From Candidatus Micrarchaeota archaeon (GTDB lineage Archaea; B1Sed10-29), in the NCBI GenBank assembly GCA_964579265.1, contig CAZOFO010000003.1, forward strand, positions 23,584-87,583: a stretch of DNA of 64,000 bases. Direction: 5' to 3'. This document shows positions 3,001-9,000 of the stretch, in pieces. Made by a program: the position numbers. Position 1 is the first letter of the stretch; the number at the start of each line of letters is the position of its first letter.

Positions 3001-6000
3001 CTTTGCTTCTTTGAAAAGAGCTGTTGCTGTCTTACCAAATATCATTTTTTGAACAAGAGAATCAAAGTTGTTCTCTTTACTTTGTTTATGAAGTTCTTCA
3101 CTCATTATCTTCCTTATCTTTTTTTCTTTTGATGAGTGTAGTTTTCCAACGGTAAACGCGTAGACAGTGACATGTAGGTTTTTATCGTCTACTTCTATAT
3201 CTTCTATTGTTTTTATAACGCTTCTTCCTTTTCTTATATTCTTTCTTATGTAATCTCTTGTTACTTTGAAGCTTTTGATTTTTGTTCTTATGGTTTCTCC
3301 TTCTATACCTTCTATTTTGAATTTTATTTTTATGTTATTATGATTTCTTTTCCCTGTTAGGTCTCTTAGTGAAGTTTCTATTGTTCTTTCTTCTAATTCA
3401 TCTGTTTCTATTGCTGGTGTTTCCCCTATACCTTTTTCTTCAAATATTTCAGGGGCTTCTATTTTGTACCATTCTTTGTCTTTCCATTTGTTGGCTTTTT
3501 TAGCTGTTTTTGCTTTTGGCATATAATCACTATTTTTCAACTAGTAGTTTTGCTTTTTCTGGGTCGTAGTACCAGTTATCTTCTAATTCTCCTTGTTTTT
3601 TATAGTATTTTGTTAGTCTTCTAATCTTTGATTCTATTAGTTTTAGATTTCTTTTGTTCTTTTTATCTTTATTGTGTTTTTCTAGGTGTTTTCTTACTTT
3701 TACTGCTTTTTCCATTAGGTTCATCAGGTCTTCTGGGTATTCTGATTCTTTTCCTTCTTTTTCAAGTATTTGAGTTATTTTTTCTCCTGTAACTGCTTTG
3801 ACATCTGGTACTCCGTATTCGTCTCTCAGTATTCTTCCAATATCGCTTGGATTTTTTCCTTCTTCTCTTAATTCTATTATTTTTTCTCTTATCTCTTTTT
3901 CGGATTGGTCAATCCATGTTGGGGGTTCATCTGATGCGGGGGAGGTTGAACCTGATTTTCCCTTGTCTTTTGTGTGCATTCTTGTCATGGTTATCTCTAT
4001 TTGTCATTTTATAAGTTGATTAAGTAGAATTTTTCTTTGAATTTAAATTTTAGTATTTTTTGCTTGTTTTTTGCTTTTTCTTCTCTTGCTCTGTATTCCT
4101 GTTATTTTATTGTGATTAACCTGCTTTATAAATTTGTCTTAATCTATTGTTTTTCATCTTTTTCAGTGTATCTTCCTCTTTTTTCTATTTTTCTCATCTT
4201 GCTTAATATTCTTTTCTTATTGTATTCTTTTTTTAAGTTTTCCCATATTTCGTTAAATTCTTTCCAGTGTGTGCTTTTGAGCATTTTTTTGAATACTAGG
4301 AGATCCATTGCTTTGTCTTCTATTCTTTTTGTTTTTTCGGAGAGTCCGAAGTCTATGAAGTATAGTTCTTCTTCTTTTCTTATTATATTGGATGTTGTTA
4401 GGTCGTTGTGAACTATGTTTTCTTTATGTAGTTTTTTTATTAGTTTTCCTATTTCTTTTCCTATTTTTGAGGGTTTTTCTTTTCCTTTTTTTATTCTTTC
4501 TTTTATTGTTTCTCCTTCTATGTATTCCATTATTATATTGGATTTCTCTGTATCTACTTGGAATATGTAGGGTGTTTTCACTGCTTTTCGAGATCTTCTC
4601 ATCATTTTGGATTCGTTGAGGGTTCTTCTTTTCTTTATTGTGTCGTCTAGTTCTTTTATTCTGTGTTTTTTTGGTTTTCTTTCTTTTTCTACTGTTTTGA
4701 ATCCTAGGTAGTTATTTTTGTAGAGGGTTGCTTCTGCTCCTTTGTATATTATTTCCATTTTTTCACTTTTTTGCTAGAATAGTTTTTTTCCTACTCTTTT
4801 TATTCTTACTTCTGGGTTTGTTAATCTATCGCATTGTCTTTGAGTTTCTAATTCTATTTCAAAACTAGTTTTGTCGTCTGGTTCCTGGATGTTTTTTATA
4901 GTTTCAAATGTTTCTGCTGGTGGTTTTTCCGGTACTTCTTCTATTATTGCTTTTAGTTCTATCTCTTTTACTTCGTATTCGTATTCTATCTCTATTTCAC
5001 CTGTAAAAGTAACTAGACATCTGTTTTCACCGATTTCTTGTTTTTGGATTGGTTCTAGATGGTGTTCTACGTCTGGGTCTGTTCTAGCTACTTGTATTAA
5101 GTTTGAAATGATAGGGTAGGAGAGTACAATTACTACTGCTATTATTATTAAGGTTATTAATGTTTTGTGGCTGGTTCCTTTTTTCATTTTTTCGCCTCTG
5201 TTTTTATTTGTACTTCTTTATTTTTTATATTTTATTTTTTTGCTCTGTATTTGTTGGTTCTCCAGTTGGGTTTTATATCTATTTTTTCCGGTTTTTTAGC
5301 TTTTTCTTTGTATATTTCTCCTGTGTAGGCTATCATGGCTCCGTTATCTCCACAGTATTCTCTTTTTGGGGTGTGGAAGCTTGCTCCGTGTTCTTCTGCC
5401 ATTTTTTCATCAATTTCTCTTAGTCTGGTGTTCATTGCTACTCCTCCGGTTAATAGTAGTTCTTCTTTTTTGGTGTGGGCTATTGCTCTTTCTGTCACTT
5501 CTACTAGCATTGAGAGAATTGTTTCTTGAAATGAATAAGCTAGGTCTTCTTTTGTATATTCTTCTTTGTTTTTTAGTTTTTTGTATTCTTTTTTTGCTTG
5601 TGTTACTAGTCCTGAGAAGGATAAGTCCATTCCTTTGACGGTGTAGGGTAATTCGATGTAGTTTTCTCCTTTTTCTGCCATTTTCATTATTTTTGGCCCT
5701 CCTGGCATCTTTAGATTCATTTCTCTTGCAAATTTATCAAAGGCGTTTCCTATGCCTATGTCCAGTGTTTCTCCATGTATTCTGTATCTTGAACCTGCAT
5801 ATGATATTATTTGGGTGTTTCCTCCTGAAACGTATTGTACTAGTGGGTCTTTTGCTTCTGTATCTTTTTTACTAACTTCTATGTGGGCTATACAATGATT
5901 AACTGGAACTATATTTGCTTTTAATTCTTTAGATAGTTTTTTTGCTAGTTCAACTCCTTGAAGTAGACAGGGGGGCAATCCTGGTCCGTTTGCAACTGCT

Positions 6001-9000
6001 ATTAAATCTATTTCGTCTTTTTCTATTCCTGCTTCTTCTATTGCTTTCTTTAATGTTTTTTCTCTCGTTTTTTCATGGTGTTCTGCTGCTTCTCTTGGTA
6101 TTATCCCTTCTCCTTCTTCTGGTTTGTAGATGCTCTTTTCGTTCGCGATTATCTCTTTGTTTTTGGTTATCCCTATTCCCAGGGTGTGTGCTGTTGATTC
6201 TATTCCAAGACAGTTCATTTTTTTCACTTTTCAGATTAAATATACTGGTAGTATTGCTACGAGGTTGTAGAAGGTATGGCTTAGTATCGGGCTGTATACT
6301 CCTCCTGTTTTTTCGTATTGGTATCCTAGGAGTAGTCCTAGGAAGAAGGTTCCTACAACCTGTGAAATTGTTCCGTAGGTGATGTGAAATACTGCGAATA
6401 TGATTGAGGCTATCCATAGGTTTGTTTTTTCTTGGATAAGTCCTCTGAAGAATACTTCTTCTATGAATGATCCTATTAAGACTATTATCAATATTTCATG
6501 TATTGGTATTTGTCTTAGTATTTCTGTTGTTCTTTGCACGTCTTGATGCATTCCTAATTGTTGGAAGGTTAAGCTTATTATTGAGGATACTACGAGCATT
6601 ATTACGAGAAATATTATGGCTATTGCGGTTTCTCTACTTATTTTTATGTCTTTTTTGAATCCTAGTCTATCGAGTATTGTTCCTTTCTTTATGTACAGGG
6701 TTATTGAGAGTAGAACTAGGTATAGAGCTATTGAGACTATCATTTTTTCTCAATTTTCCTTTATTATTCTTTCCATCTAGTGTATCCGCATTTACCGCAG
6801 TGTTCTCTGTCTTTGTGTTTTGCTAGTAGTGTTCCTTCTCCGCATTTTGGGCAGTTTGGATTGTCTTTTTCTATTTCTTTGTCTTTAACTTTGTATTTTT
6901 CTCCTTTCATTCTTCTTCCTCCTTGTGGTTTCTTTCTTTTTTGTATTTTTTACTGTATTTTTCCCGGTCTTCTGGTGATTCGTATGCTTTTACTATGCAT
7001 TTTGCTTCTTTCTTACCGTATTCTTGTTCTATTTTGTCTATGACTATGTTTTCTTTTTCCTGGTTTAGTTTTGCTGAGATTTTTTCTAGTACTTCTTGTC
7101 TTGAGGGTGTTTCTTCGTAATTCTTTATTTTTAGAGTAATCTTTTTTCTATTTAGTGCGGGGTTTTCTTCTTTTTTTTCTTCTATTATCTTCATTTTATC
7201 ACCTTTTTAGTCTTTATCTTATCTTTTGATTCTTAATGCGTATTTTCCTGGTGTTTTGACACTTAGTTCTTCCGCTAGTTCTGATTCGTCTGGACTTAGG
7301 ATTATTGTATATCCTTTCCAGCTTTGTGTTAGGTCTGATTCTTTGCATATTGGGCATTGATTTCCTTTGACTATTTTATGGCATTTTTTACATGCTTTGT
7401 CTTTCATTTTTGATCACTTTTTTCTTTGTTTTCTTTTTCTTCTTCTATCCATTCTTTTTTTCCTAATCCTGGTTGTTTCATGGTTAGATTGATTTTTGAT
7501 TCGTTTACATTGTCTTTTAGTGATACGGCTATTATTCTAGCTCTTACTTTATCGTCTTTTTTTATGCTTCTGTCTGTTTCTTTTCCTGATAGTGCTCCTG
7601 TTTTTTGGTTGTGGGTCATGTAGTCGTCCGTTATTTGAGATACGTGTGCTAGTGCGTCTATTGGTCCGAATCTTACGAACGCTCCGAAGTCCACTATTTC
7701 GTTTACGTATCCTCTTACGGGTTCGTGTAGCTTTGGATTGAATGTTAATGCGTTGAATATTACTTCGTAGTATGCTGATCCGTCTCCCTGTATTATTTTT
7801 CCGTTTTTTATTTCTCTGCATTCGTCTACGCTTATTATTACTCCTAAGTCTTGATCTATTCTTGATTCGTATTTATCTTGTAGTGCTTTTTTTGCTGATT
7901 CTTCTAATGGTTTGTCAAAGTATTTTGGCGGTATTCTTACTGAGTCTTTTGCTGTAATCATTTGATACATTTTTTATCCCTCTTTTTTAGTTTTTTATTT
8001 ATTTTTGTTGATCGTATTTTTCCATTGCTTTTTTGACTTGTTCGTGTGCTTTTTTTACTCCTAGCCAGTCTTTTACTTCTACCCATTTTGATTTTTCCAG
8101 TTCTTTGTAGTCGCTGAAGAAGTGAGCTATTTCTTGTCTCTTGTGTTTATTTACGGAACTTATGTCTCTGTATTCTGCTTTTCTTGGGTCTTTCATTGGT
8201 GCTCCTAGTACTTTATCATCTATTCCTTTTTCGTCTTCCATTCTAAGAACTCCTATTGGTCTTACTTCTATTACGCATCCGGGGAATGTTGGTTCTTCTG
8301 TTAGAACCAGTACGTCTAGTGCGTCTCCGTCTTCTGATATTGTTTGAGGTATGAATCCGTAGTCTCCTGGGTAGTGGAATGGTGAGTGTATTACTCTATC
8401 TAGTTTGAAGTATCCTTCTTCGTCTTGGTATTCTATTTTGTTTCTGCTTCGTCTTGGTATCTCTATTACTGCGTTGACTATTTTTGGAGGGTTTTTTCCT
8501 CTTGGTATATCTTTCCATAGGTTTTTTCCTTTCATGTTTTTGGTCTCCTTTTTTGTTCGTTTTTTTATTCTTTCCGTGTTTTTTATTTGTCTTTGACTTT
8601 TACATTTTTTTGTTTTTTACGGGGTTTATTCTTCCCAGTGTCTTATTGCTTCTCAGGTAAACCACTGGTATTTCTTTTTTCAGGCATCTTTTTTTTAGTT
8701 CTTTGTCATTTGTGGCTACTGTTGCTTTTTCTTTTTCAGCGTATTCTAGTATTCTATCGTCCACGTGTTCTTTTTCTGTTTCTATTTTTTCTTCTTTAAT
8801 GTCTTTTTTTTCTATTATCTGTAATGCTATCTTACTTTCTTTTTTTCCAAGTCTTTCTAATTCTTTTTTGATTGATTTGAGCACTATTAGTTCTGCTGTT
8901 GGTTCTTTTTGTTTTATTTCTTTGAATATATCGATTTTTTTTGTTTCTGGTATTAATAGGAAGTTTGTGTCTAGCACTATTTTTTCTCTTTTCATTTTTT

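What a model noticed while it worked through the whole genome (the two positions that open the first line are those of the whole stretch)
4144..6218. KEOPS complex without Pcc1, with a remodelled Pcc1-binding face on Kae1
The genome encodes Kae1, Bud32 and Cgi121 (C9:2358-2798) but no Pcc1, and pcc1 is gone from its slot between rpo12 and prefoldin beta (C11:14375-14852). The loss is order-wide and co-varies with substitutions in conserved N-terminal motifs of Kae1, pointing to t6A synthesis by a three-subunit KEOPS.
Evidence so far: PF09341: 0 of 13 genomes of this order versus 11 of 11 in the other orders (at least 80% complete; call 92). A profile of three relatives' Pcc1 finds nothing significant in the proteome. 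The eL43-to-pfdB gap is 147-191 bases and holds only Rpo12 in 6 of 6 family genomes; in 9 other order members it holds Rpo12 and Brix. Kae1 alignment: all 12 complete order sequences have GI(I/V/D)P and GPG(L/I)PP without the following Arg, all 10 Pcc1-bearing relatives have GIHPR and GPGLGPCLRV, as does solved archaeal Kae1 with GPGLGPALRV.
(Added by a program. Inside this text positions count along the whole contig: contig position 23,584 is position 1 of the stretch shown here. "Call 12" and the like, gene names such as g00115 and contig names such as C1 are that model's own, and its searches are not shown. The text may have been shortened before it was handed on; [...] marks where a part breaks off. 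The agent that wrote the report below was given it as the finding of a first reader that could run no searches.)

Follow-up and report, generated by a model that had tools for sequence, protein, structure and literature searches.

The report
Archaeal tRNA-modifying complex missing Pcc1
These tiny archaea have lost a subunit thought indispensable for a universal tRNA modification, and the enzyme surface that normally binds it has turned from a sticky patch into a charged one, both here and in other small-genome archaeal lineages.

Summary
Confirmed and widened. kae1 (5232-6227) and bud32 (4144-4758) are intact and cgi121 is present. pcc1 is absent from 18 of 18 genomes of the order, and its slot before pfdB is closed in all 18; 13 of 13 genomes of the sister orders have it. 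Kae1 keeps its catalytic residues, but helices a1/a2 (the published Pcc1 face) have become charged. In 161 genomes of another DPANN phylum, 83 gave no Pcc1 hit. The Kae1 columns that best track this are again a1/a2, and the slot was closed in 14 of 14 remodelled genomes checked. One origin for all losses is rejected (AU p 0.007); a shared origin with the largest such clade is not (p 0.32). Corrections: the GIHP-to-GIIP change is not a Pcc1 marker. The TC-AMP synthase Sua5/TsaC is missing in 15 of 18 order genomes and looks re-acquired in the other three, so t6A synthesis is inferred, not shown. Best reading: a Kae1-Bud32-Cgi121 complex whose Kae1 needs no partner on that face, like monomeric human OSGEPL1, although this trio is inactive in vitro in Pyrococcus.

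The parts
5232..6227 (-). kae1, KEOPS catalytic subunit, 331 aa
   Evidence: TIGR03722 over cut-off; AlphaFold2 model pLDDT 87, TM 0.90-0.91 to solved archaeal Kae1
6030..6107 (-). loop 3 (Gly41, Pro44 kept) and helix a1 (residues 44-66); positions 52 and 55 turned charged or small
   Evidence: Gly41/Pro44 correspond by alignment to the invariant Gly38/Pro41 beside the anticodon in PMC11621456
5922..5987 (-). GPG loop and helix a2 (residues 81-102): Pro85, Leu89, Glu93, Lys96, Lys97, Lys100, Glu101; the remodelled Pcc1 face
   Evidence: the order's profile of this stretch no longer hits solved Kae1 at E 10, while the sister orders' profile hits it at 3e-10
5883..5897 (-). metal ligands His111 and His115 (with Asp294 at 5346-5348)
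   Evidence: invariant in 18 of 18 order sequences
4144..4758 (-). bud32, KEOPS ATPase, 204 aa
   Evidence: TIGR03724 over cut-off; 18 of 18 order genomes
4168..4179 (-). Bud32 C-terminal R-(G/A)-R-Y tail, needed for t6A in model systems
   Evidence: kept in 18 of 18 order Bud32; role from PMC8565320 and PMC11621456 passages
4774..5187 (-). 137-aa ORF between kae1 and bud32, N-terminal membrane anchor plus beta-sandwich-like part; not a Pcc1 substitute
   Evidence: no Pfam family; weak likeness to CARDB/DUF7490-type models; its cluster came only from loci of the four same-genus genomes

Best explanation
The order encodes a three-subunit KEOPS (Kae1-Bud32-Cgi121). Shown: pcc1 was cleanly deleted from the exosome-rpo12-brix-pfdB operon, and the a1/a2 face of Kae1 lost its small and hydrophobic residues and gained charges, while the active site, loop 3 and the Bud32 tail stayed intact. 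Inferred: the face is now solvent-exposed and binds no protein, so the complex is a monomer. Cgi121 holds the CCA end, Bud32 ATPase distorts the anticodon arm, and Kae1 transfers the threonylcarbamoyl group to A37 unaided, as monomeric human OSGEPL1 does. Speculative: Pro85 stiffens the GPG loop, and basic residues at 52/53/55/96 take over the anticodon-backbone contact that Pcc1 Arg63 makes. TC-AMP comes from a re-acquired TsaC in G000, G002 and G007; its source in the other 15 genomes is unexplained (host supply is one possibility). The same state occurs several times in another DPANN phylum.
For: Absence; unfiltered six-frame search of G000 with two lineage profiles, best E 1.1, while held-out family controls scored 1.6e-13 or better. 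Slot closed in 18 of 18 order genomes, 182-234 nt wide and filled in 12 of 12 sister-order loci measured. Outside sample: after three gap columns, the 11 columns most informative on Pcc1 status all lie in a1, a2 or the residue before a2 (helices). A forecast written down before the search named 11 Pfam-negative genomes with Pcc1-type Kae1: 7 gave a Pcc1 hit, 2 held a degenerate pcc1-like ORF in the slot, and 2 also lacked a pfdB match; only 1 of the other 67 turned positive. Slot closed in 14 of 14 remodelled genomes chosen from separate branches. Mean hydropathy of 11 face positions: -1.03 in the order versus -0.23 in sister orders, and -1.62 versus +0.37 in the other phylum. Catalytic residues invariant. 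Sua5/TsaC kept in 37 of 62 remodelled genomes of the other phylum and apparently regained twice in the order. No second Kae1/TsaB paralogue in G000. Precedent: monomeric OSGEPL1 (PMC7102964 passages; PMC13377070 section 15).
Against: Kae1-Bud32-Cgi121 without Pcc1 is inactive in vitro in P. abyssi (PMC3814370 section 17). Sua5/TsaC was not found in 15 of 18 order genomes. No interface was computed from coordinates and no oligomeric state was predicted. Profiles do miss degenerate Pcc1 (G037, G056), so a degenerate and relocated copy is not excluded. Face positions 52, 93 and 97 were chosen after I saw the alignments. Eukaryotic Kae1 has Arg at position 52 and still binds Pcc1 (C. elegans Arg50; representatives). 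Well-supported independent contrasts are only 3-4 (all in the expected direction or tied, sign test p 0.25). A shared origin of the order's Kae1 with the largest Pcc1-less clade is not rejected (p-AU 0.32).
Confidence: 0.5

Rival explanations
1. In most of the order KEOPS no longer makes t6A. Both the TC-AMP synthase and Pcc1 were lost, and Kae1-Bud32-Cgi121 is kept for another essential job, such as the t6A-independent role reported in Saccharolobus.
For: Sua5/TsaC absent in 15 of 18 genomes, 7 of 8 at 90% completeness or more; the three copies present look foreign, so the order's ancestor probably lacked it. Pcc1 is dispensable for Bud32 activation but needed for t6A (PMC11621456 passage). 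A t6A-independent essential function is reported in PMC10989989 (title and passages).
Against: Metal, nucleotide and loop-3 residues and the Bud32 tail are invariant. Regaining TsaC makes sense only if Kae1 can use TC-AMP. In the other phylum 54 of 83 Pcc1-negative versus 62 of 78 Pcc1-positive genomes have Sua5/TsaC (Fisher p 0.053, kin not independent), so the two losses are at most weakly coupled.
Confidence: 0.2
2. Kae1 homodimerises through the remodelled helices, like yeast mitochondrial Qri7, with the second Kae1 replacing Pcc1.
For: The order's a2 profile hits only Qri7 in the PDB (E 0.12, not significant alone), sharing Pro85 and the G-x-x-F-A-K pattern; profiles from Pcc1-bearing groups list no Qri7. 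Qri7, TsaD and Kae1 use the same face (PMC3695523).
Against: Qri7 needs small or hydrophobic residues at Gly131, Val134 and Ala135: G131Y, V134R and A135Y/R abolish function and V134R is monomeric. These map to positions 97, 100 and 101, where the order has mostly Lys/Glu/Ser or a gap. The mapping of 130-131 is read; 134-135 are extrapolated. The profile of remodelled Kae1 from the other phylum still prefers Kae1 (30 bits) to Qri7 (14 bits).
Confidence: 0.15
3. A partner still covers the face: a highly degenerate Pcc1 moved elsewhere, or an unrelated small protein.
For: Degenerate pcc1-like ORFs escape genome-wide profiles (G037, G056). G000 is 91% complete in 41 contigs and has 188 small ORFs, many of unknown function, which I inspected only by eye and only in part (output was cut).
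Against: The degenerate cases sit in the normal slot beside an unremodelled Kae1; here the slot is closed in 18 of 18 and the face is charged. No recurring unknown small ORF lay within 1.5 kb of kae1, bud32 or cgi121 across the order other than ribosomal/polymerase genes and lineage-limited membrane-anchored proteins (labels recalled).
Confidence: 0.12
4. The absence is an assembly or detection artefact.
For: All genomes are incomplete (62-95%).
Against: The slot is contiguous and closed in 18 of 18 genomes; 13 of 13 relatives as incomplete as 61% show the gene.
Confidence: 0.02

Closest known systems
Archaeal KEOPS (Pcc1-Kae1-Bud32-Cgi121, plus Pcc2), P. abyssi / M. jannaschii
   Same: Orthologous Kae1, Bud32 and Cgi121; intact active site and Bud32 tail; kae1 and bud32 close together.
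   Different: No Pcc1; a1/a2 face charged; no dimerisation platform; Sua5/TsaC missing in most of the order.
Human mitochondrial OSGEPL1 (monomeric t6A transferase)
   Same: Catalytic subunit that, on my reading, works without the four-helix partner.
   Different: Qri7/TsaD lineage, works without Bud32 and Cgi121; monomeric state shown there, only inferred here.
Yeast mitochondrial Qri7 homodimer
   Same: No Pcc1; weak convergent likeness of the first half of a2.
   Different: Dimer-critical small residues are replaced by charged ones or deleted; Bud32 and Cgi121 are retained.
Bacterial TsaD-TsaB-TsaE; Mycoplasma haemofelis/suis lacking TsaB and TsaE; Plasmodium falciparum lacking Pcc1
   Same: Reported cases of partner loss in reduced genomes (PMC4615747 passages).
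   Different: No TsaB-like paralogue here; those reports give presence/absence only, with no slot test or surface analysis in the passages seen.

Membership tests
archaeal KEOPS | Kae1 with His-His-Asp metal site | tested here: met
archaeal KEOPS | Bud32 with catalytic motifs and C-terminal Arg tail | tested here: met
archaeal KEOPS | Cgi121 | tested here: met
   G000 over NCBIfam cut-off; 15 of 18 order genomes (G013 and G014 negative, G001 not searched with the profile)
archaeal KEOPS | Pcc1 | tested here: not met
archaeal KEOPS | Pcc2/Gon7 fifth subunit | not tested
   No Pcc2-specific profile was run; PMC9889334 finds Pcc2 in DPANN only in Altiarchaeota
archaeal KEOPS | Pcc1-type a1/a2 surface on Kae1 | tested here: not met
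   five-feature score 2 or less in 18 of 18 versus 5 in 10 of 10; profile tests
archaeal KEOPS | Sua5/TsaC supplying TC-AMP | tested here: inconclusive
   present in G000 (C11:328-942), not found in 15 of 18 order genomes
archaeal KEOPS | Physical complex and t6A activity | not testable with these tools
   needs biochemistry
Qri7-type homodimer | Small/hydrophobic residues at Gly131, Val134, Ala135 equivalents | tested here: not met
   (134-135 extrapolated)
Qri7-type homodimer | Works without Bud32 and Cgi121 | tested here: not met
   both retained
OSGEPL1-type monomer | Monomeric in solution and active | not testable with these tools
   the complex predictor was not available; surface chemistry only
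TsaD-TsaB | Inactive paralogue TsaB | tested here: not met
   no second hit of the Kae1 profile in G000 below E 2.5; other order genomes not searched this way

The most novel reading that the evidence does not exclude
DPANN archaea have repeatedly turned KEOPS into a Pcc1-free, monomeric machine by the same small set of surface changes on Kae1 (up to about ten times on the Kae1 tree, with degenerate-Pcc1 intermediates). In this order the TC-AMP synthase was lost as well, so Kae1 either works on TC-AMP drawn from the host or exposes a t6A-independent core function of KEOPS.
Probability: 0.35. Interest if true: 0.85.

Novelty: new variant of a known kind. Interest (0 to 1): 0.72.

Why it matters
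What Pcc1 does for Kae1 is an open question: it is required in vitro 'for unknown reasons' (PMC11621456), and a 2026 paper calls the four-helix interface universal, with OSGEPL1 as the exception (PMC13377070). Natural Kae1 variants that manage without Pcc1 supply a short list of positions (52, 55, 85, 89, 92, 93, 96, 97) to graft into M. jannaschii or P. abyssi Kae1, which makes the question directly testable. Members lacking both Pcc1 and Sua5 are natural test cases for host-supplied TC-AMP or for a second function of KEOPS. The Kae1 surface also predicts whether a genome has pcc1.

Tried and rejected
Weak Pcc1-profile hits in G004 were antisense to a SecF-like gene or in a 133-aa protein of another family (labels recalled). 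Weak Sua5-profile hits in G010 and G012 were a proteasome subunit and an FKBP-type isomerase (labels recalled). A Pcc1 fused to Brix or pfdB was rejected on length (Brix 143-155 aa in the order versus 117-167 in sister orders). The 137-aa ORF was rejected as a substitute. The search for related loci gave only 6 loci. The phage search found only TsaD-like hits. Cluster look-ups gave no lineage names, so the order and the large Pcc1-less clade remain unnamed. AU tests of the 21 Pcc1-negative rows of the other phylum and of the order alone did not finish. Earlier findings were not open. His43 was rejected as a marker.
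Full report
Setting. The window is G000:C3:23584-87583 of a 0.76-Mb, 91%-complete archaeal genome. Its phylum holds one class of 31 genomes: 18 in its order and 13 in other orders. I infer a DPANN lineage from genome size and relatives; I could not name it. The region holds kae1 (5232-6227), a 137-aa membrane-anchored ORF and bud32 (4144-4758), all on the minus strand; cgi121 is on C9 and a tsaC on C11.

Pcc1 is gone. PF09341 passes its cut-off in 0 of 18 order genomes and 13 of 13 others. 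A profile of the 13 class Pcc1 proteins finds nothing better than E 1.1 in 11,783 six-frame ORFs of G000, whereas held-out families score 1.6e-13 or better. Over the 18 genomes it gives two noise hits in G004. A broader 27-sequence DPANN profile finds nothing in 5 of 5 near-complete order genomes and again E 1.1 in G000 without filters. In the sister orders pcc1 fills 182-234 nt between brix and pfdB (12 loci measured). In the order that distance is -14 to 65 nt in 12 genomes, and in the six family genomes, which have also lost brix from the slot, rpo12 ends 12-37 nt before pfdB. Kae1 and Bud32 are in 18 of 18 and Cgi121 in 15 of 18.

The Kae1 face. All 18 order sequences have Pro85 and lack Arg89; all 10 available sister-order sequences have Gly85 and Arg89. 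The model places a1 at 44-66 and a2 at 86-102 and superposes on solved Kae1 at TM 0.9. A review states that Pcc1 packs on exactly these two helices, the face also used by TsaD-TsaB and the Qri7 dimer (PMC8565320). I did not compute contacts from coordinates. The metal and nucleotide residues, Gly41/Pro44 and the Bud32 tail are invariant in the order.

Outside test. Among 150 Kae1 representatives the order's a2 pattern recurred, also in two genomes whose records are titled Woesearchaeota and which have no PF09341 hit. I therefore searched 161 genomes of that phylum (Nanoarchaeota by recalled taxonomy; a sample, completeness filter 85). Pfam found Pcc1 in 67 and the lineage profile in 78; Kae1 was found in 156. 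I aligned 131 of these 156; the 25 left out were mainly the lowest-scoring or partial matches. Before the profile search I noted 11 Pfam-negative genomes whose Kae1 looked Pcc1-type. Seven turned positive, two (G037, G056) hold a degenerate pcc1-like ORF in the slot, and two (G150, G178) lack a pfdB match too; 1 of the other 67 turned positive. After three gap columns, the most informative columns for Pcc1 status are 86, 93, 52, 97, 55, 92, 85, 89, 90, 101 and 96. A five-feature score, three features of which were picked after seeing the data, is 3 or more in 61 of 61 Pcc1-positive genomes and 2 or less in 62 of 70 negative ones; in the class it is 5 in 10 of 10 and 2 or less in 18 of 18. The slot was closed in 14 of 14 remodelled genomes picked from separate branches, and filled in both positive controls (G070 and G085 judged from coordinates). 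Some remodelled groups keep Gly85 and Arg89 and change only 52/93/97, so the charged stripe is the more general sign. His43 is not a marker.

How many origins. With the two helices removed (276 columns), the order's Kae1 groups with its own class (support 99) and Pcc1 status changes 14 times on a 159-row tree. On a 72-row subset, with G037 and G056 relabelled positive and G150 and G178 dropped, both traits change 10 times, but well-supported branches force only 3. Independent contrasts on such branches number 3-4, none in the opposite direction, p 0.25. One clade for all 30 Pcc1-negative rows is rejected (p-AU 0.007); the order plus the largest Pcc1-less clade is not (p-AU 0.32). So several origins are likely, their number is uncertain, and one transfer between these two groups remains possible.

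Sua5/TsaC. It is found in 3 of 18 order genomes versus 9 of 13 others; a lineage profile added nothing in the 10 of 15 negative genomes re-searched. The G000 and G002 enzymes nest with support 99 among proteins labelled Aenigmatarchaeota and Nanohaloarchaea, away from the class's own TsaC, and G007 has a long Sua5 that groups with other long forms. The simplest reading is loss in the order's ancestor and two regains. In the other phylum 54 of 83 Pcc1-negative and 62 of 78 Pcc1-positive genomes have it. Loss of Sua5/TsaC in some DPANN symbionts is in print, with host supply left open (PMC10321239).

Monomer or dimer. Hydropathy over 11 face positions falls from -0.23 to -1.03 in the class and from +0.37 to -1.62 in the other phylum. 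The order's a2 profile hits only Qri7 (E 0.12) and no solved Kae1; Pcc1-type profiles hit Kae1 at about 1e-10 and not Qri7; the remodelled set from the other phylum is intermediate. Yet the Qri7 positions whose enlargement kills the dimer or its function are charged or deleted in the order. I therefore favour a partner-free face. The complex predictor was not available, so this rests on sequence alone.

What is known. Pcc1-free Kae1-Bud32-Cgi121 is inactive in P. abyssi (PMC3814370 section 17). pcc1 is essential in S. islandicus and M. maripaludis, and H. volcanii mutants grow very slowly (PMC9889334), although a review cites only 16% (H. volcanii) and 30% (yeast, unpublished) loss of t6A and absence of Pcc1 in P. 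falciparum (PMC4615747). PMC10989989 states that Pcc1 is conserved in all archaea; PMC2948915 says it is missing in a few genomes. The source table of PMC9889334 lists no Pcc1 hits for Pacearchaeota, Nanoarchaeota, Nanohaloarchaeota or Parvarchaeota, and the main-text passages I saw do not discuss this. Seven literature searches found no report of lineage-wide Pcc1 loss with a remodelled Kae1; most subscription journals are outside the library, and figures such as the distribution panel of PMC10989989 could not be seen. Seen as passages: PMC9889334 (plus supplement rows), PMC5001605, PMC10989989, PMC11621456, PMC8565320, PMC10321239, PMC4615747, PMC3695523, PMC11077089, PMC7102964, PMC2948915, PMC9654439; passages plus one section each: PMC13377070, PMC3814370.

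Verdict. It works like KEOPS but fails the Pcc1 criterion: a new variant of a known kind. My odds: loss real about 0.95; surface change tied to it about 0.9; t6A activity about 0.7; monomer rather than dimer or hidden partner about 0.65. Interest 0.72.

Noticed in passing
G000:C14:14117-14233: tRNA-Ile with anticodon UAU and an intron. From recall, most archaea read AUA with a modified CAU tRNA; I did not search for TiaS.
   Followed up: no
L313:1305-1496 (G037) and L311, ORF 1074-1448 counted on the minus strand (G056): Degenerate pcc1-like ORFs in the normal slot, lacking the conserved Ala-Leu-Arg motif, beside Pcc1-type Kae1; possible intermediates of loss.
   Followed up: partly
L090:328-942 (G000:C11): tsaC lies downstream of what looks like an AMP phosphorylase gene (label recalled), in a context unlike the sister orders', and is 55-59% identical to proteins labelled Aenigmatarchaeota versus 25-32% to its own class.
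   Followed up: yes
G000:C11:14378-15179 and the five other family genomes: The family has also lost the brix gene from the eL43-rpo12-brix-pcc1-pfdB run; whether brix lies elsewhere was not checked.
   Followed up: no
window 4774-5187 (-): 137-aa membrane-anchored protein between kae1 and bud32, limited to the genus; other order members carry different membrane-anchored ORFs near this spot.
   Followed up: partly
L025, L026, L028, L029, L031, L032, L035: Seven of 18 order Kae1 proteins are shortened by about four residues at the end of helix a2.
   Followed up: partly
L178, L206, L234 (G120, G133, G059): Kae1 lies in open frames of 730-758 aa in three genomes of the other phylum, suggesting a fusion with an unknown partner domain.
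   Followed up: no
G000:C1:103706-103909 and C9:8443-8649: Two histone-like genes (label recalled); many tRNA genes carry introns.
   Followed up: no
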